DNA from: Stellaceae bacterium | GTDB lineage: Bacteria > Pseudomonadota > Alphaproteobacteria > ATCC43930 > CGMCC-115725 | Assembly: GCA_046706015.1 (NCBI GenBank) | Contig: JBJKPV010000123.1 | Location: 1-31,129, forward strand | Length of the DNA stretch: 31,129 nucleotides | Direction of reading: 5' to 3' | Shown: positions 13,794-28,360 of the stretch, piece after piece | Layout of the letters: each line of letters starts with the position of its first letter | Position numbering within the stretch: the first letter of the stretch is position 1 | Program-made: the position numbers and the translations under genes | The notes under the pieces: generated by a model | Told to the model about the DNA's origin: nothing | Database searches by the model: none | What the model saw: only the letters and a program-made list of their open reading frames with translations

Positions 13794-15757
13794 GGAAAGG
13801 TAACCTCGCTTACGGCGATTTTTACGAGCGCGAGGCGACGCCGCGCGAGCAGGAGTTCCGCGAGATCGAGCTGAGCACGCCCGACGATCTGCCTTTGGTC
13901 GATCTGATCGAGCTCTATGCCGGCATCGAATACGCGCTGCCAAGCGACCAGGGCCTGGTCGTCCAGTTCGTCAGCGCCACATCGGGGTTCGGCAGCGAAC
14001 AGGTTGCGCTCGACATGGCCTGGGCGGGAGCCAGCGTGCTCGGCCGACGGATGCTGCTGCTCAATTGCAACAAGTCCCGGCAGCGCCTGCCGCCGCCGCG
14101 CGGCGCGCAACCCGCCGCGCAACCCGTGATCGAACGCCACGTGCCGGTGAACCACATCGTCAAGGTGTCGGGCCAGGTGCTCTTCCACGCGGAATGGCGA
14201 AGCTGGCATTCGAAATCGGGCGCGTTGGTCGGTGCCGATGTGATCGACGGCCACCTCGACGAACTGCGCGCGTTTTTCGACATGATCGTCATGATCGCGC
14301 CGCCGGCGGATGGTGACCCGCTGGCGATGATCATGGCGCGGCACGTCGACGGCAATGTGATCATCCTCGAAGCCGAGCAGACCCGCCGGTCCGCGGCGAT
14401 ACGTCTGCGCGAGATTCTCGCTCGAGCCGGCAGCCCGATCGTCGGTGCCGTGCTCAACAACCGGCGCAATCACCTGCCGCGCAGGCTTTCGCGGCTCCTC
14501 TATCGGCAGCGTGGTCCGGCGATGCATGTGATGGTCGCAAACAATATCTATCCGCCGATCGTCGCCGGCGGCGCGGAACTCATCGTCTCCTATCTCTGCG
14601 AAGGCCTTGCGCGGCGTGGGCATCGAGTCACGGTCGTCTCGACCTGCTCACCGGATATGGAGCCTTATCCAGCGGAGATCCGCAACGGGGTCGAGGTCAT
14701 TCGCTTCTTTCCGCCGAACGTCTATTGGTCGTTCACGCGCGATCGCAATCCGGGCGTCAAGAAATGGCTGTGGCACGCCCGCGACGCGTGGAATCGCCAA
14801 GCCGGGCTTCGCTTGCGGGAGATCCTCAACGCGGCGCGGCCGAGCGTGCTGCATTCGCATCTGATCGACGGCATGTCGGCCTCCGTCTGGGGCTACGCGC
14901 GGCGTGCGGGCGTGCGCGTCATCCATACCGCGCATGACTATCACCTGCTTTGCCCGCGCGCTTTCATGCTGACCTCGGACTGGAATCTGTGCGCTCAGCC
15001 GAGCCTTCCGTGCCGCGTCTATCGCAATTGGCATATCGGCACGACGCGGCATGTCGACCTCTTCGTCAGCCCGTCGCGATTTCTGCTCGAGATGCATGAG
15101 CGCGCCGGCTTGCGCGTCGCCAAGCGCGCGGTGGTGCCGAACGGCATTCCGCTGCCCGCGGCGCTCGATCAGGTCCGGCAGGCGCGCCCGCCGGATAGCC
15201 ATACACGGTTTCTCCTGCTTTCGCGTCTGACGGTCGAGAAGGGCGTGCTCGTCCTGTTGGACGCTGTCGCGCGGCTATCCCCCGATCTCGGTATCGAGGT
15301 CGTGATCGCGGGCAAGGGGCCCTTGGAAGACCGCGTACGCGCCGCCGCCGCGGCGGACCCGCGCATCACCTATCTCGGCTATGTCAACGGCAAGGCCAAA
15401 ATCGAGGCGCTGTCGCGGGCCGGCTACTTATTGCTGCCCTCGCTCTGGTACGAGAACGCGCCGGTGGCGATCGTCGAGGCTGCGGCTTATGGGCTTGGGC
15501 TCCTCGCAAGCCGCATCGGTGCCATTCCGGAGTTCATTGAAGAGAATCGGACCGGACTGCTGTGTCGGCCTGGCGATCCTGAGGCCTTGGCTGAAGCCAT
15601 GACGCGCGTCGCACTCGAGCCCCATGCCTTGCCGGATTTGGCCGCGCGCTCGGCGGCGGTCGCGCAACGCCACCGTGTCGAACACATGATTGATGCCTAT
15701 GAGGAACTCTACGTCGCCTCGCTCAGCCGCCAAGCGACCTTCGCCGGCGGAAGCTGA
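13790..15757 (+). CDS. Fusion of a degenerate CpsD/CapB (BY-kinase-like) P-loop domain (aa ~1-240) and a GT4 glycosyltransferase (from MHVMVANN at 14522)
   Basis: GTGA overlap with the copolymerase. The N-half has VQFVSATSGFGSE, MLLLNCN, FDMIVMIAPP, HVDGNVIILEAEQTRR and IVGAVLNNRR, matching BY-kinase topology. The C-half has YPPIVAGGAE, HTAHDY, SRLTVEKG and the E-x7-E motif ENAPVAIVE. Confidence 0.85.
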   Translation: MRKGNLAYGDFYEREATPREQEFREIELSTPDDLPLVDLIELYAGIEYALPSDQGLVVQFVSATSGFGSEQVALDMAWAGASVLGRRMLLLNCNKSRQRLPPPRGAQPAAQPVIERHVPVNHIVKVSGQVLFHAEWRSWHSKSGALVGADVIDGHLDELRAFFDMIVMIAPPADGDPLAMIMARHVDGNVIILEAEQTRRSAAIRLREILARAGSPIVGAVLNNRRNHLPRRLSRLLYRQRGPAMHVMVANNIYPPIVAGGAELIVSYLCEGLARRGHRVTVVSTCSPDMEPYPAEIRNGVEVIRFFPPNVYWSFTRDRNPGVKKWLWHARDAWNRQAGLRLREILNAARPSVLHSHLIDGMSASVWGYARRAGVRVIHTAHDYHLLCPRAFMLTSDWNLCAQPSLPCRVYRNWHIGTTRHVDLFVSPSRFLLEMHERAGLRVAKRAVVPNGIPLPAALDQVRQARPPDSHTRFLLLSRLTVEKGVLVLLDAVARLSPDLGIEVVIAGKGPLEDRVRAAAAADPRITYLGYVNGKAKIEALSRAGYLLLPSLWYENAPVAIVEAAAYGLGLLASRIGAIPEFIEENRTGLLCRPGDPEALAEAMTRVALEPHALPDLAARSAAVAQRHRVEHMIDAYEELYVASLSRQATFAGGS

Positions 15758-15767
15758 CCGGGCGCGC

Positions 15768-17708
15768 GTGCGGGTCGCTCTCGCTGCCTTTCTCTTATGC
15801 CTGCTGGCCTTGGCGGCGCCTGTCTATGCCGAGTCGCTCCCGTCCGATGCCGGGATCATCAACGTTCGCGATTACGGCGCGCGCGGCGACGGAAGGCACG
15901 ACGATACCAAGGCGCTCTTGAACGCCATCGCGGCGAGTGGCGGCGATACCGGCCGCGCCTTTTGGCAAGATCGCATCGTTTATCTTCCCAACGGCACCTA
16001 TCTCGTCTCCGCGCCTCTGGTGAAGCGCTATGCCGGCGGGCGGTTCGGCTCGGGCATGATCCTGGTCGGCCAGTCGCGGAACGGCACCGTCATTCGCCTC
16101 GAAGATCACGCACCGGGTTTTGACGATCAGCGCCATCCGCGAGCGGTCGTCTTCACCACCTCGAAGCTTCTCGACGGCACGCCGACCAGCGGCGGCAAGA
16201 ATTATCCGGCGCTCGGCGAAGGCAACGACGCCTATATGAACTCGGTCGAGGATCTGACCATCGATGTCGGCAAGAACAATCCCGGCGCGATCGGCATCGA
16301 CTATCTCGCCAACAATATTGGGGCCGTGCGCGACGTTACGTTGAAGGCGCCGACTGGCAGCGGCGCCATCGGCCTTTCGATCCAACGCAAATGGCCGGGG
16401 CCGGCGCTGATCGAGAATCTCCTCGTCGAAGGCTTTGCGACGGGCATCGCGGTGGCGCAAACGGAATATGGGCTGACCTTCGACCATATCCGGCTGCGCG
16501 GCCAGCATGGCCCGGCGCTACGCAACGACCAGAACGTTCTTTCCATGCACGATCTCGAAATCACCGATCCGGCACCGGCCATCGTCAATAGCGGCGCCAA
16601 AGGCTTCATCGCGATCGATGGCGGATCGATCGGGCTGACCACCGGCGCACCCAAGCTTGCGAGCGCTGTCGCCAATGCCGGCTTCGTTGTGACCCGCGGC
16701 CTCGCCCTCGCGCGCGCCGGCCAGGAGGACGTGCAAGGTGAAAAAGCAACGATGCTGAATGGCATTCTCGCGGCGGGCGGCAAATGGAAGACGGTAGCCT
16801 GGCCGGCCTGGCTGCCGCGACTTCGCGACGCCCCCGCGGATCCGGCGATCGCGCCCAAGAACTGGGCGAACGCGGCGCATTTCGGCGCCGTGCCGAACCC
16901 GACGCATGATTCGGCGGAGGGGTTGCGGCGGGCTTTTGCCTCCGGTGCTTCCGTGGTCTACCTGCCGCACGGAACTTATGCGATCAGCCGCGCGATCGAG
17001 ATACCGCCGGGCGTGCGCCGCATCGTCGGCATGAATTCGACGATCAAGATCTTGCTGCCGCGACGGCCCGATTTTGCGCGCGACAAGGGCATGTTGCGTG
17101 TTGAGAGCAACGGCCCGCCGCTATCGATCGAGAACCTGGCGCTCGACAACACCAATCTCGGCCACCAGCTCGGAATCGAGGTGGCAGGGCCGCGCACGGT
17201 CACGATCCGCGATGTCGTTGCGGCCGGGGTCACGCTGCTCGACCGTAAACAGGCGGGCGGCCCGGTTTTCCTCGAGGATGTCTGCTGCGGCGCGATCGAG
17301 CTGGACGGTCCCGCCTCGGTGATCGCGCGGCAGCTCGACACCGAGGGCGGCGGCGTCCGCATCCTTGATCGTGGCAGCCCGCTCTCGATCCTGGGGCTCA
17401 AGACCGAAGGCATCGCGACGATTCTCGGCAATCGCGACGGCGCGCATGCCGATGTCTGGGGCGGCCTCGTCTATATGGTCCACAATGACGGCGGCACGCG
17501 CGTTCCGGCATTTCGCAACGCGGATGCATGGCTGCTCGCAGCCTTCGCCGAGGAATCGCTGCGCGCGGCGAGCCATTACAACGTCTATCTCGCGGGCCAG
17601 ACTCCGCAGGGCGAAGCAGTATTGACGCCCGATCGTTTTCCCACGCGCGGCTTCGGGCACTTCGTCCCGGATCTGCGCGCGACGCCGGCGGGTCCTCAGC
17701 CTCAGTAA
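15768..17708 (+). CDS. Secreted right-handed beta-helix glycan-active protein (Pectate_lyase_3 / GH55-like, two repeats)
   Basis: Signal peptide VRVALAAFLLCLLALAAPVYA from a GTG start. INVRDYGARGDGRHDDT...VYLPNGTYLVS recurs as HFGAVPNPTHDS...VYLPHGTYAIS. Confidence 0.8.
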   Translation: MRVALAAFLLCLLALAAPVYAESLPSDAGIINVRDYGARGDGRHDDTKALLNAIAASGGDTGRAFWQDRIVYLPNGTYLVSAPLVKRYAGGRFGSGMILVGQSRNGTVIRLEDHAPGFDDQRHPRAVVFTTSKLLDGTPTSGGKNYPALGEGNDAYMNSVEDLTIDVGKNNPGAIGIDYLANNIGAVRDVTLKAPTGSGAIGLSIQRKWPGPALIENLLVEGFATGIAVAQTEYGLTFDHIRLRGQHGPALRNDQNVLSMHDLEITDPAPAIVNSGAKGFIAIDGGSIGLTTGAPKLASAVANAGFVVTRGLALARAGQEDVQGEKATMLNGILAAGGKWKTVAWPAWLPRLRDAPADPAIAPKNWANAAHFGAVPNPTHDSAEGLRRAFASGASVVYLPHGTYAISRAIEIPPGVRRIVGMNSTIKILLPRRPDFARDKGMLRVESNGPPLSIENLALDNTNLGHQLGIEVAGPRTVTIRDVVAAGVTLLDRKQAGGPVFLEDVCCGAIELDGPASVIARQLDTEGGGVRILDRGSPLSILGLKTEGIATILGNRDGAHADVWGGLVYMVHNDGGTRVPAFRNADAWLLAAFAEESLRAASHYNVYLAGQTPQGEAVLTPDRFPTRGFGHFVPDLRATPAGPQPQ

Positions 17709-18067
17709 GGCCGTTGCAGGATGTAAGGATCGATTACCGGCTTCGGCGGCGGCGCGGGCACCGCGGCGATGCAGGCGCCTTTCACGCGCTTGCTGGCGGC
17801 GTCGCAGCTCGCGCGGTCGGCATAAAGGCAGGAGACCGCGTTGCCCGACTGAACGACGCAGAACGGTGCGCCGCCGGCGGGCGTGAGGAACTCGGTTGGA
17901 TTGGCCTCGCAGCGCCCGCCCTGCCGGGCCGCCTCGCGCTGACAGGAGGCCGGGTCGACATAGGTGCATTGTGGCGTCATGCCGGTGACATTGACGCAAA
18001 ACGGCGCTGCATAAGCGGGACCCGCCGCCAGCAGCGCATAGGAGGCGAGGAGAAGAGCGATTTTCAT
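17702..18067 (-). CDS. Secreted 121 aa protein with two tandem 4-Cys modules (DUF3551-like)
   Basis: Signal peptide MKIALLLASYALLAAGPAYA, then PFC-x9-C-x7-C-x10-C twice and a Pro-rich tail. ATGA overlap with the flippase stop. Confidence 0.8.
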   Translation of the reverse strand: MKIALLLASYALLAAGPAYAAPFCVNVTGMTPQCTYVDPASCQREAARQGGRCEANPTEFLTPAGGAPFCVVQSGNAVSCLYADRASCDAASKRVKGACIAAVPAPPPKPVIDPYILQRPY

Positions 18068-19416
18068 GGGCTCACCTTCTGCAATCGCTGAATCGAGCGT
18101 GCCATCAGCGCGAGGAGCGTGGCGGAGCTCAGCGCCTGGGCGACGCTGTAGCAAAGGATCGCCGAGGGCGCGCGCAGCCCGAAATGGATCGACACCGCGA
18201 AGACGCCGAGAATGAGGAGGAGGCGTCCGAACTGCCAGCAAGCGGCGAGCGACTGCTTCTCGAGCAGCTGAAGCGTGTGAAAAACCGGCATGACCACGAG
18301 CTGGGCGAGATAGCCGATGCTCATCGCCTGGAGATAGACGACGGCGTCAGCCCATTCCTGACCGAAAACGGCGGGAAAGAATGCGACCGCCGCCACATTC
18401 GCGAGCGCGATCCACGCCGCGGACAGCATGAATTGGCGGCTCGTCACCTGATAGAAGCGCGCGCGAAGTTTTGCCGGGTCGCTCGAAATCGTCCGTCCGG
18501 CCTCGCCGACGAAAACCTGCAAGATCGAGGTCGCGACCAGCGCCAAGGGTCGTGCGACCACGCGCTCGGCCAGAAAGATGAAGCCGGCGATGCGTGCCGA
18601 GTATTCCCACGACACCAGCAAGAAGAGCAGCTGATTGCCGCCGGCCGCATCGATCAAGGCCGCCCAGCTCGCGATCAGCGGGAAATGGCGATAGCGCCAG
18701 GCGAGCGCGCGCATCTTCGTCAGCGACACGCTGCGCAAGCGCAGGCGCTGCCCGCCTCCGACCTTCCACAGCAAGCCGAAGGTACCCGCGGATTGGCCAA
18801 GGATGGACCCAATGACGAGGCCCGGCGCACCCAGGCTGGTGGCGCCAAGCCCAATCTGCGTCAAGGGACCGACGATTCCTTGGCTGATCCGTGTTTGGGC
18901 GATCGCGCGAAAGCTGCCGTGCCGCGTCGCCATGTAGAGCGCGATATAATAGCCGCCGAGGCAGAAAAACCCGGTAACGAGGAGCGCGCGGTAGAGATCG
19001 ATGCGGTCGAAATCGATCGGCGTCGGCCACAACGCCTGGATCGAGGCTTGCGGCAGAGCGAAGGCCACGATGGCGAGGAGGGACGTTGCCGCGAGCAATG
19101 CGCAGCCGCACACGGCCATGAGGTTGACCGCATCGTCGTCGGTGGGTGCCAAAGGCAAGGTGAGGTCGTAGCGGAGCGAGCTCAGCACGACGAAGATCGC
19201 GAGAATCGCGGTATAGACGCTCAAGACGCCAAATTGCTGCGGGGAATAGAGCCGCGTCAGCGCGGGGGCGAGCGCGACGCTCATCGCCTGTCCGCCCGCG
19301 GCGCCGGTCAGCATGATGGAGACATTCTTCAGAAAGGGGCGACGGGCGAGCGCCGCACTCAGCCGGCGGAGCGCCGCGAGCGGCGCGATGGCGCGTCCTG
19401 CCTCTTCGATGGGCAC
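18064..19416 (-). CDS. wzx: Wzx flippase (polysaccharide biosynthesis / MOP superfamily)
   Basis: Multi-TM protein with PALTRLYSPQQFGVLSVY, LRYDLTLPL, YRHFPL and PAVFGQEWADAVVYLQ. The GTG start at 19416 is an estimate; the ORF is open to 19590. Confidence 0.88.
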   Translation of the reverse strand: MPIEEAGRAIAPLAALRRLSAALARRPFLKNVSIMLTGAAGGQAMSVALAPALTRLYSPQQFGVLSVYTAILAIFVVLSSLRYDLTLPLAPTDDDAVNLMAVCGCALLAATSLLAIVAFALPQASIQALWPTPIDFDRIDLYRALLVTGFFCLGGYYIALYMATRHGSFRAIAQTRISQGIVGPLTQIGLGATSLGAPGLVIGSILGQSAGTFGLLWKVGGGQRLRLRSVSLTKMRALAWRYRHFPLIASWAALIDAAGGNQLLFLLVSWEYSARIAGFIFLAERVVARPLALVATSILQVFVGEAGRTISSDPAKLRARFYQVTSRQFMLSAAWIALANVAAVAFFPAVFGQEWADAVVYLQAMSIGYLAQLVVMPVFHTLQLLEKQSLAACWQFGRLLLILGVFAVSIHFGLRAPSAILCYSVAQALSSATLLALMARSIQRLQKVSP

Positions 19417-19911
19417 CGTGCTCGACGCGCATGCAGCATCGCTCTCGCTTCTTTGTTCGGAAGAGCGCAAGACGAGTCGGGATGAAGGTCGCGACAATCT
19501 TCGCGTCGCACGAAGCACGAAATCGCGTGCCGTCAATGAGTTTCGAATGTCCGTCACTAGACGCATTTCCGAACTGATTGACAACGTCAAAGCGCGGGCC
19601 GCGTTCCTCGAAACGCGCGCGAAAGCGACGGATCACAGCGATGTCACACGGTCGACTGCGTGCTTGCCAGTTTCGCGAGCACTCGGCCGCGTTCGCGCAG
19701 TCACGCCGATATCACACCGACACTGCAAGGAATTGCGCGTTAATACGATGCCATCGATCGACCGTCACGCAGGACGACACAATCGCGCAAATGACGAGAA
19801 TGGGCGAGACCGTGTTCGAGAGATTCGTTGTCGCGGCGGGGTCGCGCCAAATCCGGCGCAGCGGATCCGGGTCCGGCGCGCCCCGGCCGACGCGCCATTA
19901 GGCAAGCCGCA

Positions 19912-21540
19912 ATGTCGATGTTCGCTGGGGTCGCCAGTCGCCATTCTGGCGAGCAGGACTCCTATCTTCATCGCGTGGCGCCACTGGCGCTGCTTGCGGG
20001 CGCGCTTGCGATCTTCACGCTGCTGCGAGCCCTTCTTCTTGCCGTGGCGACGAGCGCCGCGATCGATTGCCTCGGCCTCGACATCATTACTTTTGCCGGC
20101 GCCGCGCTTTTGGCCGGCATTCGCTACCAGGAGATCGCACCTTTTGCACGGCCGCTGTTGCGGGGGATCGGTGCTGTCGTTCTGGTTCAGGTCGCGTTCG
20201 ATGTCGTCGCGTTGATCGACGACCCGGTAAGCATGACATCGGGCGCCAACGGCGCCTTTTTTGGGGCCGGCGGCGTGCTGGCGTTGATCGCCGGCATCGG
20301 CGCCCTGTGGCGTCCGAGCTTTCTCCTTCCGCTCTTCTTTCACTACGTGGCATTTCGCCACCAGCTGAGCATTGTCGGCGGCATCGAGATATCCCAAACG
20401 GATTACCTGAGCATGCTCGATATCGGCGAGTTCATCGCGCTCGGCACGCTCTTGGTCGCATACGTGACGCGGCCGGCCTTCCTCGGCCGGTTCGGTTCGG
20501 TGAGCGTCAATGCCGCTGAATTGCGCGCCGGCGCCTGTGCGCTCATCGTCGCCTGGGCGATCGGCGCGCATCTGGGAAATTATTTCGTCTCCGGCTGGAC
20601 CAAGATACGCGCCGGCGGTGCCGATCCGCTCTTTTGGCTTCTCCACAATCCGACTCAGACCGCGATCCTCATCGGGCTCGAGCGCGGCGACAACATCTTG
20701 GCCGCCTGGCCTTGGCTCGTCCAGCTGAGCTGGGACGCGATTACCAAGCTCCTCATCCCGGTCAACATCTTCGTACTCGGCACGCAGTTTCTGGTGCCGC
20801 TCGCCGCGCTGCACCGCCGCGCGCTGATGGTTTTCACCGTCCTCTTCGACCTCTTTCACGTCGTCGTCTATTTCACCCTGGGCGCGGCGTTCTTTTTCTG
20901 GGTCGCGGTCAATATCCTCATCTATCTGTCGCTGAAGCGGATCGACGACCGCGCCTGGACGCCGGCGCTGAGCCTCGTCACGATCGCGGCGATCCTGACG
21001 GCGCATTGGACCTTCTATACGAGCCATCTTGGCTGGCTCGACACCGCGAAGCTGGCCAGTCCGCGCTTCTTTGCCGAAACCCGCGACGGGCGCGAGGTTC
21101 CGGTTCCGTCGGTCTATTTCGGGAATGTGTCCTATTCGATTGCGCAGACCGCGATGTACGTCCCCGACGACAATTTCGCGATGCGTGTCGGCGGCAACAC
21201 GCATGACCCCTCGGCTTGGCGACGCGCGCAGCGCTGCACGCCCGATTTCGTCCATCGCCAGGACACGGGCGTGGGTCTGCCGGCGGTCGAGAGCATGGTG
21301 CGGGGCGCCGACGCCGCGATGCGCCGCCATCCGATCGTCAAGAATGACAATCTCTATTACTTCTACCCCTACCACATGGTTGCCAACCCGATGATGTTCG
21401 CGGCCTTCAATCGGTTGAAGATCGGCGACATCGTGCGTTACCACTATGTGGTCGAGTCGGTTTGCCTCGGGCTGAAGCACGGCAAGCTGGTCCGCGACGT
21501 CCTCAAGCGAACGGATTTCCCGATCGATGTCGGCCGCTGA
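19912..21540 (+). CDS. HTTM-like (vitamin-K-dependent carboxylase / LMF superfamily) polytopic membrane protein with a C-terminal soluble domain
   Basis: About 10 hydrophobic segments. NYFVSGWTKI...W matches the HTTM Y..(S/A)G..K motif and LFDLFHVVVYFTLGAAFFFW matches FH....G..F. It overlaps a DCC gene, a known HTTM neighbour. Confidence 0.65.
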   Translation: MSMFAGVASRHSGEQDSYLHRVAPLALLAGALAIFTLLRALLLAVATSAAIDCLGLDIITFAGAALLAGIRYQEIAPFARPLLRGIGAVVLVQVAFDVVALIDDPVSMTSGANGAFFGAGGVLALIAGIGALWRPSFLLPLFFHYVAFRHQLSIVGGIEISQTDYLSMLDIGEFIALGTLLVAYVTRPAFLGRFGSVSVNAAELRAGACALIVAWAIGAHLGNYFVSGWTKIRAGGADPLFWLLHNPTQTAILIGLERGDNILAAWPWLVQLSWDAITKLLIPVNIFVLGTQFLVPLAALHRRALMVFTVLFDLFHVVVYFTLGAAFFFWVAVNILIYLSLKRIDDRAWTPALSLVTIAAILTAHWTFYTSHLGWLDTAKLASPRFFAETRDGREVPVPSVYFGNVSYSIAQTAMYVPDDNFAMRVGGNTHDPSAWRRAQRCTPDFVHRQDTGVGLPAVESMVRGADAAMRRHPIVKNDNLYYFYPYHMVANPMMFAAFNRLKIGDIVRYHYVVESVCLGLKHGKLVRDVLKRTDFPIDVGR

Positions 21541-21925
21541 CGCGACATCGCGCGATATTTGGATCATCTACGACGGCGAATGTCCGTTCTGCCGCTCTTA
21601 CGTTCTCTTCTACCGTTTGCGTGATCAAGGCAGGCGCGTCCATCTCCTCGATGCGCGCGCGGCCGATCCGGTGGTCGAGGAGATCCGACGCCGCAAGCTC
21701 GATCTCAATCGCGGCATGGTCGTGAAGATCGACGATCGGCTCTATTTCGGATCGGAGGCGATCAATCTCTTGGGGATATTGGGAAGCACCGCGAGTCTCT
21801 TCAATCGCATCAACCATATCCTCTTCGGCCATCCGCGCTGCGCCCGCCTGCTTTATCCGATTCTTGTCCGCGGCCGTCTTCTGACGTTACGGCTGCTCGG
21901 CCGACCATTGATCGACAGTTTCTGA
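21527..21925 (+). CDS. DCC1-like thiol-disulfide oxidoreductase (DUF393)
   Basis: N-terminal IIYDGECPFC is the DxxCxxC signature. Also YFGSEAINLL and C-terminal LYP..VRGR. It overlaps the upstream gene by 14 nt. Confidence 0.9.
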   Translation: MSAADATSRDIWIIYDGECPFCRSYVLFYRLRDQGRRVHLLDARAADPVVEEIRRRKLDLNRGMVVKIDDRLYFGSEAINLLGILGSTASLFNRINHILFGHPRCARLLYPILVRGRLLTLRLLGRPLIDSF

Positions 21926-21937
21926 ACGCCGAGGAGA

Positions 21938-23044
21938 ATGGCAATGCCCGACACGCTTGGCTTCGAGCTCCGCGAGGATGCGGGCTGCTGGACGGTTTCC
22001 CGCGCGGCGGCCAATCGTCCGGTCGTGGCGACGATCGTCATCCCCACCTATCGCGCCGCCGCGACGCTGAACCGCGCGCTGTTGAGCGCGTTGAGTCAGA
22101 CAATGACCGATATCGAAGTGATCGTGGTCGACGACGCGTCGACCGACGCGTCTTGGGATCTGGCGCTCGAGGCGATGCGCCACGAGCCGCGGCTGCATGG
22201 AATCAGGAACAAGCGCAATTGCGGCAAGCCGGTCGGAATGAATCGGGCGATCGCGCTCGCCCGTGGCCGCTGGCTCGCGGTCTTGGATGCGGACGATTGG
22301 TACCGGCCCGAGCGGCTGGAGATGCTGATCGCGTTGGGCGAGAGCACGCATGTCGATCTCGTCGCCGATAACCAGCTCTTCTACGACGCGGGCGCGTCTC
22401 GCGTCGTGGGATCGGCTTGGCCGGAGGCAACGGGCGCGTGGCCACTGAGCTTCGACGACTTCCTTGCAGGGTCCGATGCCTATGAGAGCTTTAATCTCGG
22501 CATGTTGAAGCCCGTCATCCGCACCGATTTCCTGCGTCGTACCGGGCTCGGCTACCAGGAGCGCGCGCGGCACGGCCAGGATTTCTTCCACCTCCTGGAA
22601 TTCTTCCTGCAGGGCGGAAAGGCCGTCGTCTCCGACCGGGCGCTCTACCATTACACGCTGCCTTTCGGCGCGGTCTCGCGGCGTTGGTCGCATGCCGAGC
22701 GCCGGCGATACGACTTTCAGACTGCTTGCGACATCAACCGGCAGTATCTCGTCGCGGCGCACGCCACGCTCACCTCCGCACAAGCGGCGCAACTGAAACG
22801 TCGCAATGATAAGCTCACATCACTCGAAATGTTTTTCCAGGCGCGCGAGCGGTTTGGGCAAGGCGATGCGACCGGCGCCGCGGCGAGGATCCTGCGTCGT
22901 CCGGCTACCTTGGCTTATGCTTGGCGGCGGCTGCGCCGCCGTTGGGCGCCCCAGAGCGCATCGCGCCCGATCGAGCGCATCGCCGCCCGCGCTCGCCGGC
23001 ACGCGCGCCAAGCCACAAGCGAGGTTTCCGCTCGCGTATCATGA
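21938..23044 (+). CDS. GT2 glycosyltransferase (ExoO/ExoU-like)
   Basis: IVIPTYRAAATL, VIVVDDASTD, GKPVGMNRAI, WLAVLDADDW and GQDFF motifs. Confidence 0.93.
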   Translation: MAMPDTLGFELREDAGCWTVSRAAANRPVVATIVIPTYRAAATLNRALLSALSQTMTDIEVIVVDDASTDASWDLALEAMRHEPRLHGIRNKRNCGKPVGMNRAIALARGRWLAVLDADDWYRPERLEMLIALGESTHVDLVADNQLFYDAGASRVVGSAWPEATGAWPLSFDDFLAGSDAYESFNLGMLKPVIRTDFLRRTGLGYQERARHGQDFFHLLEFFLQGGKAVVSDRALYHYTLPFGAVSRRWSHAERRRYDFQTACDINRQYLVAAHATLTSAQAAQLKRRNDKLTSLEMFFQARERFGQGDATGAAARILRRPATLAYAWRRLRRRWAPQSASRPIERIAARARRHARQATSEVSARVS

Positions 23045-25371
23045 AGAGCGACCAGAATTTCGCCGACAACAATTTCACCGTCTTGCGCCTGCTGCTGGCG
23101 CTGATGGTGGTGCTCGGCCATTTCCAGCTTCTCGCCGGCGTTCGATACCCACCTTGGCCCTTCAACTACGCGGCTATGGCCGTTGACTGCTTCTTCGTCG
23201 CGAGCGGCTATCTCGTCACCAGCAGCTTCGATCGCGATTCCGGCCTGTCGCGCTTTTATATCCGGCGCTTCTTTCGCATCTATCCGCTCTACATCGCGGT
23301 CGTGACCGCGCAGACCTTCGTCCTCGGCGCGCTCGTTTCGGGCGGCGCGCTCGCCAATCTTCACTCGCTCTTGCGCTATTTCGTCGTCAACGCCGCTTTC
23401 GCGAATTTCCTCCAATACGATGTCGGCTCGCATGTCCTGCGCGGTCTCGTCAATCCCAGCCTCAATCCAAGCCTGTGGACCCTCAAGATCGAGTTCGCCT
23501 TCTATCTCATTCTGCCCGCGCTGTGGTGGGCGGTGCGCCGTTACGGCACGTCTGTCCTCGTCGCGATCTTCGTCCTCTCGGCCCTTTATTACGGCGTTCT
23601 CAACCATGCCGGAGAGTACCGGCTCGCCAAGCAACTCCCAGGTCAGCTTCAGTTCTTCGTGCTGGGAATGGCGGTCTATAAGTTTCGCGACCGCCTCGCA
23701 ATCCCGCCTTGGCTCGGCCTCGTCGCGACCTTGGCCCTTGCCGCATTCTGCACGAGCTTGCTCGCAAGTCGCCCGCCGGTGATCTATCCGTTCACGGTCG
23801 GCAGCCTCGTCGCCGTCGCCGCGCTGGCCGCGCCGCGCCTCAGGCTCACGACCGACATCTCCTATGGCGTCTATCTGCTGCATGGGCCGATCATTCAATT
23901 GTCCCTGCTGTTCGGCCTCTACCAAGCCGGCAGGCTGGGGCTCGGCGCGACCGTCGCCGCAGTCTTGGTCTTGGCGGCGATCGTCGAGCGCGTGATCGAG
24001 CGGCCGGGCATCGCGGCCGGTCGCCGGCTGTCGCGGAAATTTGGGCCGCCCGCGGCGCCGCGTGTCACACCCGCAGCTTCGACCGCGACGGCGCGCGCGT
24101 TGGAGCCTGGATTCTCTTCCGCCGCCGCGGCGCCCGGCCTCACCGTCGTCGTGCTCAATGATTTCTGTCACGTGCAAGGTGGTGCGAGCAAGGTTGCAGT
24201 CGACGAGTCGCTCAGCCTGACCCGCTCGGGAACGAACGTGATTTTTCTCGGCGCGGTCGGCCCCGTCTGTGCGGAGCTTCGCCGTTCGGCTGTGGCGGTC
24301 GAGTGCCTTGGTCAAAGCGAGCTGCTCGATTTCGCGCGGCATCCCGGTGTTGCGCTTCAAGCCTTGTGGAATTTCAAGGCGGCGCGCCGCGCCCGCGCGA
24401 TCCTCCAAGCGCTGCCGCGCGACAACACGATTGTCCATGTCCACGGCTATACCACGGCGCTGAGCACCAGCCCGGTGCGAATGGCGCGTCGGCTGGGGTT
24501 TCCGGTCGTGTGCACGCTCCATGATTTCTTCGCGGCCTGCCCCAACGGCGCGTTCTTCGATTATCTGGCCGAGAAACCATGCCTGCGGCGGCCGCTGTCC
24601 CGCCAATGCGTCGCCGCGCGTTGCGACAAGCGTCGCTATGCGCATAAGCTTTTCCGCGTCCTGCGCAGCTGGCTTCAGCGCCACGCCGGTCGTTTCCCCG
24701 ACGCGATCGAGGACTACATCGCGCTCTCGAACCAATCGGGCGCGCTGTTGGCGCCTTACCTGCCGCGACAAGCGCGGCTCCATCATCTCCCGAACCTCGC
24801 CGATGTCGTGCCGCAGCCGTCGGTCGCGGCCGCGAAGAGCCGCGCGATCCTTTACATCGGCCGACTCGATATTGAAAAAGGCGTCCGGCTCCTCGCCGAG
24901 GTGAGTCATCGCTTGGGCATTGCAATCGTCTTCGTCGGCGACGGGCCGCTGCGCCCGGAGCTTGAAGCGATCCCAGGCGTATCCGTAACCGGGTGGCTGG
25001 GCCGCGACGAAGTCCGGCGCCACCTCGATCAGGCGCGCTGTCTCGTCTTTCCAAGCCTCTGGTACGAGACCTACGGTCTCACCGTCAGCGAGGCGGCCGC
25101 GCGCGGCATTCCCGCGATCGTCAGCGACATCTCCGCGGCGGCGGAGCGCGTCCGCGACGGCGTGACCGGCTGGCGTTTTCGCAGCGGCGATGCCGGCGAT
25201 CTCGCGCGCTGCTTGAGGCTGATCGAGGACGACGCCGTGGTGGCGGCGGCCGGCGACGCGGCCTATCGCGCCTTCTGGAGCGACGCCGAAACGCCCGACG
25301 TGCACGCGAAAAAGCTCATGGGTATCTACGACATCACCCTGCGCAGAAGGACCGCGGCGTGCGCGGCGTGA
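23041..25371 (+). CDS. Fusion of an acyltransferase-3 (OafA-type) membrane domain and a GT4 glycosyltransferase
   Basis: ATGA overlap. AT3 motifs RLLLALMVVLGH, DCFFVASGY, RRFFRIYP, SLWTLKIEFAFY and ISYGVYLLH. An Ala/Pro linker (~24030-24140) leads to a GT4 with QGGASKV, TLHDFF, GRLDIEKG and E-x7-E ETYGLTVSE. Confidence 0.9.
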   Translation: MKSDQNFADNNFTVLRLLLALMVVLGHFQLLAGVRYPPWPFNYAAMAVDCFFVASGYLVTSSFDRDSGLSRFYIRRFFRIYPLYIAVVTAQTFVLGALVSGGALANLHSLLRYFVVNAAFANFLQYDVGSHVLRGLVNPSLNPSLWTLKIEFAFYLILPALWWAVRRYGTSVLVAIFVLSALYYGVLNHAGEYRLAKQLPGQLQFFVLGMAVYKFRDRLAIPPWLGLVATLALAAFCTSLLASRPPVIYPFTVGSLVAVAALAAPRLRLTTDISYGVYLLHGPIIQLSLLFGLYQAGRLGLGATVAAVLVLAAIVERVIERPGIAAGRRLSRKFGPPAAPRVTPAASTATARALEPGFSSAAAAPGLTVVVLNDFCHVQGGASKVAVDESLSLTRSGTNVIFLGAVGPVCAELRRSAVAVECLGQSELLDFARHPGVALQALWNFKAARRARAILQALPRDNTIVHVHGYTTALSTSPVRMARRLGFPVVCTLHDFFAACPNGAFFDYLAEKPCLRRPLSRQCVAARCDKRRYAHKLFRVLRSWLQRHAGRFPDAIEDYIALSNQSGALLAPYLPRQARLHHLPNLADVVPQPSVAAAKSRAILYIGRLDIEKGVRLLAEVSHRLGIAIVFVGDGPLRPELEAIPGVSVTGWLGRDEVRRHLDQARCLVFPSLWYETYGLTVSEAAARGIPAIVSDISAAAERVRDGVTGWRFRSGDAGDLARCLRLIEDDAVVAAAGDAAYRAFWSDAETPDVHAKKLMGIYDITLRRRTAACAA

Positions 25372-25439: not shown

Positions 25440-26414
25440 ATGTTCGGTTATCTGTCGGTCGCACAATTATCGGCCGCGATCCGCGCCAAGCTGACCATCA
25501 TCCCCGACGACATCGATCTCGTTGTCGGCATTCCGCGCAGCGGCATGATCCCGGCCTATCTGATCGGCCTGTTCCTGAACCGCCTCGTCATCGATCTCGA
25601 AACCTTTCTCAATGACGGGCCGGCGCCGGGTCATGGCGCGCGGCGCATCGGCGCGGAGGTCGCGAGCCCACTCGATGCCAGGCACGTGCTTCTCGTCGAC
25701 GACAGCCTGGCCTCTGGGGCATCGATGAATGCCTGCATCGGCCGGGTCGCAGCGTCGCGTTTCGCCGGCCGGCTGACGAGCTGCGCCGTCGTCGTTGAGC
25801 CCGCGATGGCGGAGCGGGTCGATCTCCATTTCGTGCAGATGCCGCAGCCGCGCATCTTCGAATGGAATGCCTTCCACCATCCTTATATCGAGATGTCATG
25901 CTTCGATCTCGACGGTCTTCTTTGCGCCGATCCGACGCCGCAGGAGAACGATGACGGGCCGCGCTATCGCGCGTTTCTTCGCGCCACGCCGCCGCTTTTC
26001 AGGTCGACCCGTCGCATCGGGCATATCGTCTCCGCGCGGCTCGAGAAATATCGGCCCGAGACCGAAGCCTGGCTCGCCGCTCATGGCATCAGCTATGGCG
26101 CCCTCCATCTCATCGACCTGCCTAGCCGTGCCGAGCGCATGCGCCTGGGGGCGCATCACCGGCACAAGGCACGGGTGTTCCGCGAGAGCGGCAGCGTTCT
26201 CTTCTACGAGAGCGATCCGGACCAGGCGCAAGAGATCGCGCGCCTTGCGGGCAAGCCCGTCTTGTGCGTTGCCGACATGGATCTGCGCTTACCCGATGGC
26301 TTCCAGGTCAAAGCGCATATCAAGAACGCGAAATGGCATTTGCGCCGCCCCTTGGGTCGGTTCAAGGGGCAATTGCGCGAGAAGATGCGCGGCCTGGTGC
26401 GCTGCGTGCCGTGA
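25440..26414 (+). CDS. Fusion of a type I phosphoribosyltransferase (N-terminal) and a HAD-superfamily phosphatase (C-terminal)
   Basis: DLVVGIPRSG and PRPP loop VLLVDDSLASGASM. Then HAD motif I FDLDGLL, motif II VSAR, a motif III Lys (HKARV) and acidic motif IV FYESD. Confidence 0.85.
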   Translation: MFGYLSVAQLSAAIRAKLTIIPDDIDLVVGIPRSGMIPAYLIGLFLNRLVIDLETFLNDGPAPGHGARRIGAEVASPLDARHVLLVDDSLASGASMNACIGRVAASRFAGRLTSCAVVVEPAMAERVDLHFVQMPQPRIFEWNAFHHPYIEMSCFDLDGLLCADPTPQENDDGPRYRAFLRATPPLFRSTRRIGHIVSARLEKYRPETEAWLAAHGISYGALHLIDLPSRAERMRLGAHHRHKARVFRESGSVLFYESDPDQAQEIARLAGKPVLCVADMDLRLPDGFQVKAHIKNAKWHLRRPLGRFKGQLREKMRGLVRCVP

Positions 26415-27037
26415 CCCTCGTCGATGCCTTGCGCACGGCCAAACGCACCGCTTTGCGCAACGCAAAGCGTGTCGGAAAGCCGTTCGGCTACAGTGAGGTC
26501 AATTGGCTGCGCGTGCGGCAGATAGAGCGCTGGCAGGAATTTCTCGGCCGGCAGGCCCCGCTCGGCGACGGGCTGGAAATCTCGCCGGGCTGGAACGAGA
26601 TGTGGCGCCGCCTTCCTTGGCGCGTCTATGAGACGGTCGATTATCCCGATTTCGACATTTGCCGCGAGCGGCTCGATCGGCGCTTCCATATCGTCATCGC
26701 CGATCAAGTGCTGGAGCACGTCGCCGACCCGCGCGGCGCGGTCGCCAATATACGGGCGATGCTGCAGCCCGGCGGCTACGCGTTAATCGCGGCACCGTTT
26801 CTCTTTCGCGTCCACGCGAGGCCTCACGACTACTATCGCTGGACCGAGCTGGGCCTGAAGACGCTCTGTCGCGACGCCGGCTTCGACACCGCCGCGATCG
26901 CAGTCGAATCCTGGGGCAACAAGGCCTGCGTCAAGGCGCATCTCGGCGGTCCGGTGCGCGATTACGGCTTCGGCCGCGATTTGAGCAACGATCCGGAATA
27001 TCCGGTCATGGTCTGGGCATTTGCGCGGAACCTATGA
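26411..27037 (+). CDS. Class I SAM-dependent methyltransferase-like protein (Methyltransf_11 type)
   Basis: GTGA overlap with the PRT-HAD gene. FHIVIADQVLEHVADP...LQPGGY and PHDYYRWT. Motif I is degenerate (LEISPG). Confidence 0.75.
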   Translation: MTLVDALRTAKRTALRNAKRVGKPFGYSEVNWLRVRQIERWQEFLGRQAPLGDGLEISPGWNEMWRRLPWRVYETVDYPDFDICRERLDRRFHIVIADQVLEHVADPRGAVANIRAMLQPGGYALIAAPFLFRVHARPHDYYRWTELGLKTLCRDAGFDTAAIAVESWGNKACVKAHLGGPVRDYGFGRDLSNDPEYPVMVWAFARNL

Positions 27038-27776: not shown

Positions 27777-28360
27777 GGGAAGCGGCATAATTGACCTTGA
27801 TAGAGCGCATAATCCGGCTGAATGAGTGGCTCTTCCGTCGTCACGGTGATGACCGCGGAGCGCAGCAGGGTCGCGTGCGGCAGGCGCGCGCGGACGGTCT
27901 CGCAAACCTGCAGCAACGTGGCGCCGCTATCGACCGCGTCATCGACGACGAGCGCCAGGCTTTCGCCCGCGGACGCTCTCGCCCAAGCATCGAGCGTCGC
28001 GAGCTCGGCCTCGTCGAAGCGATGCGGAACGGCAGGCCGCGCCGGCGGCTTGCGCGTCAGCATCGCGTGCTCTATCACGCGGAGGCGATCGACGACCGGA
28101 CGCGGCAGGTGCCCGATCACTTCGCTCACCACGGCGGCGCGAGCCTTGTGCGCGGTCGACGGCCGGCGGCAGGTCATGGCGATGACCGGCAGGTTCGATC
28201 TGTCTTCCCGCGCCATCGCCTCGGCGACGATCAGCCCGCCCGTCCTGATGCCAATGAGAAGATCGGGACGTCGGTCGCGCGCGACCAGCTCCATGAGCGC
28301 GCCACAAGCGTCGGCGAAGCCGCGCTTATCGAAGCTGATCACGCCCCTCGGACGCTTCAT
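27740..28360 (-). CDS. Stand-alone type I phosphoribosyltransferase
   Basis: ATGA overlap with wzy. PDLLIGIRTGG, PRPP loop LVVDDAVDSGATL, AVITVT and C-terminal PDYALY...CRFPWS. Confidence 0.88.
   Translation of the reverse strand: MKRPRGVISFDKRGFADACGALMELVARDRRPDLLIGIRTGGLIVAEAMAREDRSNLPVIAMTCRRPSTAHKARAAVVSEVIGHLPRPVVDRLRVIEHAMLTRKPPARPAVPHRFDEAELATLDAWARASAGESLALVVDDAVDSGATLLQVCETVRARLPHATLLRSAVITVTTEEPLIQPDYALYQGQLCRFPWSLDALNATPS

What the first reader, a model, noticed from the sequence alone, without database searches (positions are those of the whole stretch)
19912..21925. HTTM-like membrane protein + DCC thiol-disulfide oxidoreductase heading a glycosyltransferase operon
Seen: the two genes overlap by 14 nt and lead directly (12 nt gap) into GT2, AT3-GT4, PRT-HAD and MTase. 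The HTTM-like protein has two Cys in its C-terminal soluble domain (QRCTP, SVCLG). Established: HTTM domains are shared by vitamin-K-dependent carboxylases, lipase maturation factors and Bacillus SdpB, and DCC (DxxCxxC) genes are frequent neighbours. Their bacterial function is largely unknown. Inference: a trans-membrane redox or maturation relay recruited for EPS production, or a new membrane-embedded glycan-modifying enzyme.
Basis: partly seen in the sequence, partly recalled or inferred. Interest (0 to 1): 0.7.

Follow-up and report, generated by a model that had tools for sequence, protein, structure and literature searches.

The report
Hidden carboxylase-like enzyme with thiol partner
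Two overlapping genes at the head of a sugar-polymer operon encode an unannotated 11-helix membrane protein, probably a very distant cousin of the vitamin K-dependent carboxylase, and its small CxxC redox partner; the pair travels together through many bacteria, often beside sugar-building genes, and nobody knows what chemistry it does.

Summary
The membrane-protein gene (19912-21540, 542 aa) overlaps a DCC1-like DxxCxxC gene (21527-21925) by 14 nt. A 12-nt gap then leads into GT2, AT3-GT4, PRT and methyltransferase genes.

The "HTTM" label is not an annotation. Pfam and NCBIfam give no hit, even at E 10. Four indirect lines support a distant HTTM/GGCX relationship:
- GGCX is the best structural match, by a modest margin.
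- A profile-profile match (P 0.003; 0 of 167 shuffles) aligns K231 and H316 with GGCX K218 and H287.
- The topology is the same: N-terminus in, C-terminal domain out.
- The partner is the same: all three canonical HTTM genes sampled carry a DCC.

The pair is a module. DCC lies directly downstream in 40 of 46 testable loci, and one natural DCC-membrane protein fusion exists. GT2, Wzx or GT87 genes flank the membrane-protein gene in at least 7 of about 13 independent contexts; other contexts are housekeeping.

The two invariant Cys are periplasmic, DCC is cytoplasmic, and no membrane Cys is conserved. A thiol relay across the membrane is therefore unlikely.

Best reading (about 0.5): a quinone-linked, GGCX-type enzyme that acts at the periplasmic face and is serviced by DCC. 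The chemistry is untested. Earlier notes of this scan report similar HTTM-DCC modules in glycan loci of other genomes.

The parts
19591..19911 (.). Divergent intergenic region between wzx (- strand) and the membrane-protein gene (+ strand). It presumably holds both promoters.
   Evidence: ORF map. The sigma-70 consensus scan found nothing above chance.
19912..21540 (+). Gene for the 542-aa, 11-TM membrane protein (called MEMB here). It has no Pfam or NCBIfam family and is a candidate divergent HTTM/GGCX-like enzyme.
   Evidence: (AF2 pLDDT 89.7).
20569..20604 (+). Codons H220 to K231 (motif HLGNYFVSGWTK) at the periplasmic end of TM7. K231 aligns with the catalytic K218 of human GGCX.
   Evidence: H220 and Y224 are invariant and K231 is at least 90% conserved in 106 sequences. 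hhalign pairs K231 with HTTM K186. HTTM K186 corresponds to GGCX K218.
20848..20859 (+). Codons D313 to H316 (FDLFH). H316 aligns with the invariant HTTM His, which is GGCX H287.
21016..21537 (+). C-terminal periplasmic domain (residues 369-542) with invariant C442 (21235-21237) and C518 (21463-21465) and a conserved YPHH motif. No known fold was found for it.
   Evidence: Folded alone at pLDDT 85. Foldseek best E 0.14. VIA-wide best Z 3.8. No PF22777 hit. Topology.
21527..21925 (+). DCC1-like thiol-disulfide oxidoreductase, 132 aa, without a signal peptide. The DGECPFC motif is at 21572-21592. The gene overlaps the membrane-protein gene by 14 nt.
   Evidence: PF04134, E 5.8e-12. It is the only DCC found in this 60%-complete genome. 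The motif is kept in all 32 called partner genes and in the fusion P0251.
21938..23044 (+). GT2 glycosyltransferase without C-terminal TM helices, 12 nt after DCC.
23041..25371 (+). AT3 acyltransferase fused to a GT4 glycosyltransferase. Its ATGA start overlaps the GT2 stop.
25440..26414 (+).
Evidence: PRT domain only.
26411..27037 (+). SAM methyltransferase. The likely GTG start overlaps the PRT stop (GTGA).
18064..19590 (-). Wzx-type MOP flippase, transcribed divergently from the membrane-protein gene. Bradyrhizobium has the same arrangement with an unrelated Wzx.

Best explanation
The 542-aa protein belongs to a large unannotated family that is a very divergent branch of the HTTM (vitamin K-dependent carboxylase, GGCX-like) membrane-enzyme superfamily. 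It has 11 TM helices, a cytoplasmic N-terminus, and a conserved Lys/His centre (H220, Y224, K231, D313, H316) at the periplasmic side. Its 175-residue periplasmic C-terminal domain is of unrecognised fold, probably stapled by a C442-C518 disulfide. This domain replaces the GGCX lumenal (carboxylase) domain. The protein works as an obligate two-protein module with the cytoplasmic DxxCxxC protein DCC. The proposed mechanism is inferred, not shown. A membrane quinol bound in the HTTM-like core is deprotonated by K231 and oxygenated, as in GGCX. This drives a proton abstraction or oxidation on a substrate held by the periplasmic domain. DCC uses its dithiol to return the spent quinone (or its epoxide) to the reduced state, playing the role VKOR plays for GGCX. 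In this operon and its relatives the substrate is most likely a flipped lipid-linked sugar unit or the growing exopolysaccharide. Shown: gene structure, conservation, the DCC pairing and the fusion, topology, recurrent glycan neighbours, and weak but consistent fold and profile links to GGCX. Inferred: quinone use, oxygen chemistry, DCC as recycler, and the glycan substrate.
For: Homology to HTTM:
- Foldseek against the PDB puts GGCX in 12 of the first 17 rows (best E 0.023, prob 0.94).
- In the VIA second look, 14 GGCX entries lead with Z 9.2-10.4 and 313-338 aligned residues. One alignment is tighter: 246 residues at 4.7 A. The next family, otopetrin, scores Z 8.5.
- hhalign of 106 family members against 31 bacterial VKGC-like proteins gives P 0.0032 over 91 columns. 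It pairs K231/P239/W242/H316 with the invariant HTTM K186/P196/W200/H255.
- None of 167 shuffles that keep the hydrophobic-segment layout reach that score (32.1 against a maximum of 27.9).
- HTTM K186 and H255 correspond to GGCX K218 and H287. K218 is the catalytic base (bioRxiv 10.64898/2026.03.26.714578).
- Topology is N-in, C-domain out, as in GGCX: K+R 12.6 inside against 2.2 outside.

Partner:
- DCC lies directly downstream in 40 of 46 testable loci.
- P0251 is a natural DCC1-like + membrane-protein fusion.
- All three full-length canonical HTTM genes found in 301 Alphaproteobacteria have an adjacent, overlapping or fused DCC.
- An HTTM-DCC1 fusion is also described in bioRxiv 10.64898/2026.08.19.745780.

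Glycan link:
- GT2, Wzx or GT87 genes lie directly next to the membrane-protein gene in the Stellaceae-type, L007, Bradyrhizobium, Acetobacteraceae, L046, L047 and L037 contexts.

Quinone lead:
- A Flavodoxin_2 (NAD(P)H:quinone oxidoreductase-type) gene lies near the pair in 5 loci.
Against: - No HTTM family model detects the protein. Pfam gives nothing at E up to 10, and the six-frame search of the genome gives nothing at E up to 1.
- The profile of the family finds no PDB sequence.
- hhalign probability is only 10%. Only the central ~90 columns match; the N- and C-terminal parts give P 0.16 and 0.57, no better than the controls.
- Structural Z of about 10 lies within the range helical membrane bundles can reach by chance, and the lead over otopetrin is under 2 Z units.
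- The GGCX quinol ligands D263 and N290 have no conserved counterpart at the aligned positions (T291/Q292, V319).
- The C-terminal domain is not the VKGC lumenal domain.
- DCC is on the cytoplasmic side and the putative active site on the periplasmic side, unlike VKOR and GGCX, which face the same side.
- Six homologues lack a DCC within 10 kb.
- Distant members sit among housekeeping genes.
- No experiment exists for any member.
Confidence: 0.5

Rival explanations
1. The membrane protein is a non-redox polytopic glycan-processing enzyme, such as a polymerase, ligase or transferase that uses a polyprenyl-phosphate-linked donor in the manner of Wzy, GtrC or GT-C enzymes. DCC would be only an assembly or regulatory partner.
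For: It has 11 TM helices plus a periplasmic domain, and it sits next to Wzx and GT2 genes in several unrelated gene orders. In Acetobacteraceae it lies beside a DprE1-like oxidase and a HAD-UbiA fusion, which make polyprenyl-phosphate pentose donors. In the Bradyrhizobium locus no other Wzy candidate was seen within 10 kb. Such enzymes are often invisible to Pfam.
Against: Structural searches rank GGCX first. The only GT-C entry listed (AftB) has Foldseek prob 0.03. The window already has a separate 456-aa polytopic Wzy candidate, conserved in the syntenic loci. This reading does not explain an 87% conserved CxxC partner and a fusion. The window's GT2 has no TM helices, so it is not a GtrB/ArnC-type polyprenyl-phosphate sugar synthase. 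Distant members lie outside glycan loci.
Confidence: 0.18
2. The pair is a maturation factor for secreted disulfide-rich proteins, in the manner of LMF1, SdpB or MauE/MauD. In this locus the client would be the secreted 8-Cys protein encoded at 17702-18067 (- strand).
For: Protein-language-model neighbours include lipase maturation factor and MauE clusters at 0.85, which counts only as a lead. A signal-peptide-bearing 8-Cys tandem protein is encoded next to wzx.
Against: The 8-Cys gene occurs only in the closest synteny group. No small Cys-rich secreted protein recurs in the Bradyrhizobium, Acetobacteraceae or other contexts. DCC is cytoplasmic, so it cannot act on periplasmic clients directly.
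Confidence: 0.1
3. The pair is a general membrane quinone/thiol homeostasis module with no specific role in polysaccharide synthesis. Its place at the head of this operon would be a lineage-specific accident.
For: In L048 the neighbours are a thiolase, a pyridine-nucleotide disulfide oxidoreductase and a methylase. In L042 they are UvrA, PepP and PheS. In L041 the neighbour is ETF, and in L036 an aldehyde dehydrogenase. The only constant neighbour is DCC.
Against: GT2, Wzx or GT87 genes are direct neighbours in at least 7 of about 13 independent contexts, built from non-orthologous GT2 and Wzx genes. In the window the pair is translationally coupled into the GT operon.
Confidence: 0.14
4. The pair is a DsbD/CcdA-like thiol-disulfide relay across the membrane. 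Electrons would pass from the DCC CxxC through the membrane protein to its two C-terminal Cys.
For: The partner has a CxxC motif, and the membrane protein has two invariant Cys.
Against: No Cys is conserved in any TM helix or cytoplasmic loop; the only invariant Cys are C442 and C518, both in the periplasmic domain. A relay needs membrane-embedded Cys.
Confidence: 0.03

Closest known systems
[quoted passage not shown]
   Same: It is the best structural match. The topology is the same: N-in with an extracytoplasmic C-terminal domain. The motif Y-F-x-(A/S)-G-x-x-K is shared, with K231 aligned to the catalytic K218. The F-H motif is shared (H316 and H287), as are the P...W residues after the Lys. 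A dedicated thiol oxidoreductase accompanies both.
   Different: The Pfam HTTM model does not hit, and sequence identity is about 8-10%. D263 and N290 equivalents are not conserved. The VKGC lumenal (carboxylase) domain is absent, replaced by a domain of unrecognised fold with a Cys pair and a YPHH motif. There are extra N-terminal helices. No Gla-type protein substrate is in sight; the neighbours are sugar enzymes.
   Same: A membrane HTTM-type protein is followed by, overlapped with, or fused to a DCC1-like DxxCxxC protein. The DCC beside the Inquilinus HTTM gene scores 172 bits on the model built from partners of this family.
   Different: In those modules the membrane part is recognised by PF05090, and the extracytoplasmic part is DUF5819 or the VKGC lumenal domain. 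Here neither is recognised. In the fusion P0251 the DCC is N-terminal, not inserted after the HTTM core.
Giant-virus vitamin K epoxidase (truncated GGCX) with VKOR and a desaturase (bioRxiv 10.64898/2026.03.26.714578)
   Same: A GGCX-type core keeps the catalytic Lys but lacks the carboxylase residues and N290. It is paired with a thiol oxidoreductase and is proposed to act on a non-protein substrate.
   Different: The partner there is VKOR, not DCC, and the proposed substrate is a lipid, not a glycan. Those viral proteins are still recognisable as GGCX by sequence.
[quoted passage not shown]
   Same: It shows that bacteria use GGCX-type chemistry on a substrate other than a clotting factor.
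   Different: MloH is a recognisable carboxylase orthologue that acts on a peptide-polyketide intermediate. No carboxylase domain is present here.

Membership tests
HTTM domain family (Pfam PF05090) | Match to the family model above its gathering score | tested here: not met
   Pfam gives no hit at E up to 10. The six-frame PF05090 search of the genome finds nothing at E up to 1. Ten distant family members also give no HTTM hit.
HTTM/GGCX superfamily (distant homology) | GGCX-like fold of the membrane core | tested here: inconclusive
   GGCX is the top hit in Foldseek (E 0.023, prob 0.94, TM 0.28) and in the VIA second look (Z 10.4, 325 aligned at 8.3 A; Z 9.6, 246 aligned at 4.7 A). The next family, otopetrin, scores Z 8.5. 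In the wide search otopetrin (8.6) outranks the GGCX representative (7.8).
HTTM/GGCX superfamily (distant homology) | Catalytic Lys (GGCX K218) in the (Y)xxAGxxK motif at the extracytoplasmic end of a TM helix | tested here: met
   K231 is at least 90% conserved and Y224 invariant. hhalign pairs K231 with the invariant HTTM Lys (P 0.0032; 0 of 167 shuffles). That Lys maps to GGCX K218. K231 lies on the periplasmic side.
HTTM/GGCX superfamily (distant homology) | Conserved His of the F-H-x-x-N motif (GGCX H287) and the quinol ligands D263 and N290 | tested here: inconclusive
   H316 is invariant and aligns with H287. The positions aligned with D263 and N290 are T291/Q292 and V319, which are not acidic or Asn. 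The bacterial VKGC-like set also has His at the D263 position, and the giant-virus epoxidases have Ile at N290.
Vitamin K-dependent carboxylase proper (GGCX/MloH orthologues) | VKGC lumenal domain (PF22777), which carries the carboxylation residues | tested here: not met
   No PF22777 hit, whereas P0272 has one. The C-terminal domain folded alone gives no significant match: GGCX 399-490 scores only Z 2.9, and the best of all is Z 3.8. hhalign of the C-terminal parts gives P 0.57.
HTTM-DCC two-component module | A DCC1-like DxxCxxC protein encoded adjacent to, or fused with, the membrane protein | tested here: met
   40 of 46 testable loci have it. P0251 is a fusion. Three of three canonical HTTM genes sampled have a DCC. 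The motif is kept in 32 of 32 partners.
DCC1-like thiol-disulfide oxidoreductase (PF04134) | Family model above its cut-off, and the DxxCxxC motif | tested here: met
   47.3 bits against a cut-off of 27.8. DGECPFC lies at residues 16-22.
DsbD/CcdA-type transmembrane thiol relay | Conserved Cys pairs inside the membrane domain | tested here: not met
   The only conserved Cys in 106 sequences are C442 and C518, both in the periplasmic C-terminal domain.
Wzy / O-antigen polymerase-ligase and GT-C glycosyltransferases | Family model or fold match | tested here: inconclusive
   No Pfam hit. No such fold appears among the leading structural matches; AftB is at Foldseek rank 46 with prob 0.03. A separate Wzy candidate exists at 28357-29727.
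Lipase maturation factor (LMF1) / MauE / DoxX-type membrane proteins | Sequence or fold match to these families | not testable with these tools
   The only link is a language-model neighbour score of 0.85 for the homologue P0084. No alignment or solved LMF1 structure was available.

The most novel reading that the evidence does not exclude
Bacteria use vitamin-K-carboxylase-type chemistry on a surface polysaccharide or its lipid carrier in the periplasm. A membrane quinol is oxygenated to make a strong base or oxidant. The enzyme family is so diverged that no database recognises it, and a cytoplasmic DCC dithiol protein acts as the functional counterpart of VKOR. This would define both the long-unknown role of bacterial DCC proteins and a new class of glycan modification.
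Probability: 0.3. Interest if true: 0.85.

Novelty: new variant of a known kind. Interest (0 to 1): 0.62.

Why it matters
The functions of bacterial HTTM proteins and of DCC (DUF393) proteins are open questions. Apart from MloH, no bacterial substrate is known. This family has 625 representative clusters at 50% identity and no annotation at all. It extends the HTTM-DCC module beyond what family models can see, and it ties the module repeatedly to Wzx and GT2 genes. The family occurs in cultured, tractable bacteria (Bradyrhizobium, Belnapia, Dankookia, Siccirubricoccus, Paeniroseomonas), so the question can be tested directly by deletion and polysaccharide analysis. If the chemistry is GGCX-like, it would be a new, oxygen- and quinone-dependent way to modify a glycan.

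Tried and rejected
- Pfam at E 10 and NCBIfam on the membrane protein found nothing.
- The profile of the family against PDB sequences found nothing.
- The profile against single HTTM sequences gave only noise (prob 0.1-0.3).
- hhalign in global mode failed to give a usable alignment.
- hhalign of the N-terminal and C-terminal thirds against the matching HTTM parts was not significant (P 0.16 and 0.57; mismatched controls 0.4 and 0.28). My by-eye match of WRPSFLLPLF to the GGCX YRISCVLFLLP stretch is therefore not claimed.
- One shuffle run failed on a file-format error and was repeated.
- The C-terminal domain alone showed no fold match. Several 2H phosphoesterases appear at Z 2.5-3.8, which I treat as noise.
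- A search for longer fused forms (1008-2875 aa) found none, which is weak evidence.
- The idea that the 8-Cys protein is the client was rejected as a general explanation, because it is absent from the other synteny groups.
- The idea that the window's GT2 is a GtrB-type polyprenyl-phosphate sugar synthase was rejected, because it has no TM helices.
- The promoter and terminator scan was not above chance.
- The Atlas could not read the window's own protein, so the homologue P0084 was used.
- The first two literature searches were mostly noise.
Full report
**What is in the sequence**

The window is 65% G+C DNA from an uncultured alphaproteobacterium (a MAG of 2.87 Mb in 411 contigs, 60% complete). 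It carries a Wzx/Wzy-type exopolysaccharide locus. Pfam identifies these genes:
- priming sugar transferase, 10678-11439
- Wza-like exporter, 11268-12260
- Wzz/GNVR copolymerase, 12291-13793
- GT4, 13790-15757
- pectate-lyase-like beta-helix protein, 15690-17708
- Wzx flippase on the minus strand, 18064-19590

The operon in question runs divergently from wzx. An ATG at 19912 opens a 542-aa ORF that ends at 21540. A 132-aa ORF starts at 21527, inside the end of the first, so the two overlap by 14 nt; it ends at 21925. After a 12-nt gap holding GAGGAG, GT2 starts at 21938. AT3-GT4 starts at the ATGA overlap at 23041. The PRT gene follows at 25440. A methyltransferase probably starts at the GTGA overlap at 26411.

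**Family assignments**

The small protein is a clear DCC1-like thiol-disulfide oxidoreductase (PF04134, 47.3 bits against a cut-off of 27.8; motif DGECPFC). It is the only DCC detected in this incomplete genome.

The large protein has no family. Pfam gives nothing even at E 10, NCBIfam gives nothing, and the six-frame PF05090 (HTTM) search of the genome gives nothing at E up to 1.

**The family**

The word-indexed search found 157 relatives. All are hypothetical proteins without Pfam domains, from Stellaceae, Rhodospirillales, Acetobacteraceae and Bradyrhizobium. An exhaustive profile search of 1.84 billion representatives found 625 clusters at E up to 0.001, of which 263 are at E up to 1e-30.

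An alignment of 106 members, down to 21% identity, leaves these residues invariant: H220, Y224, W242, H316, F327, N334, P399, C442 and C518. Nearly invariant are R134, P135, D164, N223, F225, S227, K231, N246, N285, Q292, D313, H487 and H488, among others.

**Structure and topology**

AlphaFold2 with a 30-sequence alignment gives a confident model (pLDDT 89.7, pTM 0.88). It shows eleven membrane helices followed by an alpha/beta domain (residues ~369-542).

Over the 106 members, the loops predicted to be cytoplasmic carry 12.6 Lys+Arg on average, against 2.2 in the short periplasmic loops. The N-terminus is therefore inside. K231 sits at the periplasmic end of TM7, and the C-terminal domain with C442 and C518 is periplasmic.

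DCC has no signal peptide. In the natural fusion P0251 (653 aa) it precedes TM1 (DCC1-like at 10-115, membrane protein at 142-650). It is therefore cytoplasmic.

**Is it HTTM-like?**

*Fold.* Foldseek against the PDB gives no hit at E up to 0.001. Even so, 12 of the first 17 rows are human GGCX (best E 0.023, prob 0.94, TM 0.28). The independent wide search is a tie: otopetrin Z 8.6, GGCX representative Z 7.8. In the second look over Foldseek's list, 14 GGCX entries lead with Z 9.2-10.4 and 313-338 aligned residues; one alignment is tighter, with 246 residues at 4.7 A. Otopetrin follows at Z 8.5. These Z values lie in the range helical bundles can reach without homology, so fold alone is inconclusive.

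*Sequence.* I fetched canonical HTTM genes from 301 alphaproteobacterial genomes and collected relatives of the Inquilinus VKGC-like protein. The profile-profile comparison gives P 0.0032 (probability 10%) over 91 columns. In this alignment the motif NYFVSGWTK...P..W pairs with the HTTM motif YIYAGIVK...P...W, and FDLFH pairs with YACFH. None of 167 shuffles that keep the layout of hydrophobic segments reaches the real score (32.1 against a maximum of 27.9 and a median of 17.9); the reversed profile scores 15.1. The HTTM profile aligned to GGCX places these residues at K218 and H287. K218 is the base that deprotonates vitamin K hydroquinone. The N- and C-terminal thirds show no significant similarity.

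*Partner.* All three full-length canonical HTTM genes in the sample have a DCC. L051 has HTTM followed by an overlapping DCC, the same order as here. L050 has a convergent DCC, which scores 172 bits on the model built from this family's partners. L054 is an HTTM-DCC1-DUF5819 fusion. A recent preprint describes the same kind of fusion.

*Weak lead.* Language-model neighbours of a homologue include lipase maturation factor and MauE clusters at 0.85.

I put distant HTTM-superfamily membership at about 0.8. The protein is not a member of PF05090 as defined, and not a carboxylase orthologue. The VKGC lumenal domain is absent. The C-terminal domain, folded alone (pLDDT 85), matches nothing: Foldseek best E 0.14, VIA-wide best Z 3.8, GGCX 399-490 Z 2.9.

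**The pair as a module**

In 48 loci from species-representative genomes, a DCC gene lies directly downstream of the homologue in 40 (tblastn; HMM). Two of the eight exceptions are contig ends. Six loci lack DCC within 10 kb. The DxxCxxC motif is kept in all 32 called partners.

**Neighbourhoods**

I therefore called genes by GC3 and clustered the neighbours. I then ran Pfam on representatives. Gene orders are written with | around the pair, M for the membrane protein, D for DCC, and (-) for the minus strand.

| Context | Neighbours |
|---|---|
| Closest relatives (L001-L008, L039; 57-64% identity) | Whole EPS locus of the window conserved |
| Bradyrhizobium (11 loci) | GH16-RTX giant protein, a different Wzx(-) \| M D \| GT2(-), aldose epimerase, AT3 |
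| Acetobacteraceae (about 10 loci) | Unannotated 564-aa polytopic protein, DprE1-like FAD oxidase, HAD-UbiA fusion, GT2, GT2 \| M D; in five loci also a Flavodoxin_2 NAD(P)H:quinone-oxidoreductase-type gene |
| L007 | M D GT2, ferritin-like protein, cyclase, sulfotransferase |
| L046 | GT87(-) \| M D |
| L047 | GT2 \| M D |
| L037 | Wzx \| M \| GT2, without DCC |
| L048 | Thiolase, disulfide oxidoreductase, methylase |
| L042 | UvrA, PepP, PheS |
| L041 | ETF |
| L036 | Aldehyde dehydrogenase, transposase |

The GT2 and Wzx genes in different groups are not orthologous, so the glycan link has arisen or been kept several times. It is not universal.

**Mechanism**

The two invariant Cys are periplasmic and most likely form a structural disulfide. 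I could not measure the distance in the model, because coordinates are not exposed. No Cys is conserved in the membrane part or on the cytoplasmic face. A DsbD-like thiol relay from DCC across the membrane is therefore very unlikely.

What can connect a cytoplasmic dithiol protein with a periplasm-facing Lys/His centre in an HTTM-type core is a membrane quinone. My best reading (confidence 0.5) is a GGCX-type enzyme. K231 activates a bound quinol, and the oxygenated quinone supplies a strong base or oxidant for a reaction on a substrate held by the new periplasmic domain. DCC recycles the quinone product, as VKOR does for GGCX.

Precedents for GGCX cores acting on substrates other than Gla proteins are MloH and the giant-virus epoxidase-desaturase modules, which also lack N290 and the carboxylase residues.

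In this operon the substrate is most likely the flipped lipid-linked repeat unit or the polymer. All of this paragraph's chemistry is inference.

The rivals are set out in the report sections with their evidence and weights: a non-redox Wzy/GtrC-like glycan enzyme (0.18), a general quinone/thiol module placed here by accident (0.14), an LMF1/SdpB-like maturation factor for the local 8-Cys protein (0.10), and the thiol relay (0.03).

**Novelty**

The literature searches found no paper on this family or on HTTM-DCC modules in polysaccharide loci. The nearest published items are the DUF5819/HTTM-DCC1 complex prediction and the viral VKOR-epoxidase work.

Earlier notes of this scan report HTTM-DCC or GGCX-like genes in glycan loci of other genomes, mostly Bacteroidota. 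I did not test those notes. They agree with the present reading and suggest a widespread phenomenon.

I class this as a new variant of a known kind. It is an HTTM-DCC module whose membrane component has diverged beyond family-model detection and carries a new periplasmic domain.

Noticed in passing
L026:12249-12869 (and the same cluster in L033, L034, L035, L040): A Flavodoxin_2 / FMN_red protein (NAD(P)H:quinone oxidoreductase type) is encoded 2-3 genes downstream of the membrane protein-DCC pair in five Acetobacteraceae loci. It may supply quinol to the module.
   Followed up: partly
L010:2265-8968 (Acetobacteraceae synteny group): Upstream of GT2-GT2-membrane protein-DCC lie a DprE1-like FAD oxidase (FAD_binding_4+ALO), a HAD-UbiA prenyltransferase fusion, and an unannotated 564-aa polytopic protein. 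This set looks like a polyprenyl-phosphate pentose (arabinose/ribose) donor pathway with its membrane transferase.
   Followed up: partly
window 17702-18067 (- strand): A 121-aa secreted protein carries two copies of a 4-Cys module (PFC...C...C...C), and its start overlaps the wzx stop. It is conserved only in the closest syntenic loci (for example L002 and L003), not in the other contexts of the pair.
   Followed up: partly
window 28357-29727 (- strand): A 456-aa polytopic membrane protein has no Pfam hit even at E 0.1 and is conserved in the syntenic loci. It is the likely Wzy polymerase of the locus.
   Followed up: partly
L029, L030, L037 (one MAG, MFD09671.bin.1.54): One genome carries three paralogues of the membrane protein, none with a DCC within 10 kb. 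The one in L037 sits between a Wzx gene and a GT2 gene.
   Followed up: partly
L050:2457-3287 and L007:14610-15662: A 'putative cyclase' (PF04199) gene lies next to a canonical HTTM-DCC pair (Inquilinus) and also near the membrane protein-DCC-GT2 cluster of L007. This may be coincidence or a shared accessory gene.
   Followed up: no
L054:1474-3246: A single 590-aa protein combines HTTM (11-278), DCC1-like (300-403) and a weak DUF5819 match (462-489). It appears to be an all-in-one version of the split module described in the 2026 preprint.
   Followed up: partly
window 21016-21537 (C-terminal domain): Folded alone, this domain has no PDB match. Eleven of the top 32 weak hits (Z 2.5-3.8) are 2H phosphoesterases (CPDase, LigT, Usb1, ASCC1, AKAP18). 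The domain has a conserved YPHH motif. This is probably noise but was not excluded.
   Followed up: no
L011:2875-8112: The Bradyrhizobium loci carry a 1745-aa secreted protein with GH16, RTX repeats, Ig-like domains and a Trp-rich C-terminal domain, next to the Wzx gene that faces the pair.
   Followed up: no
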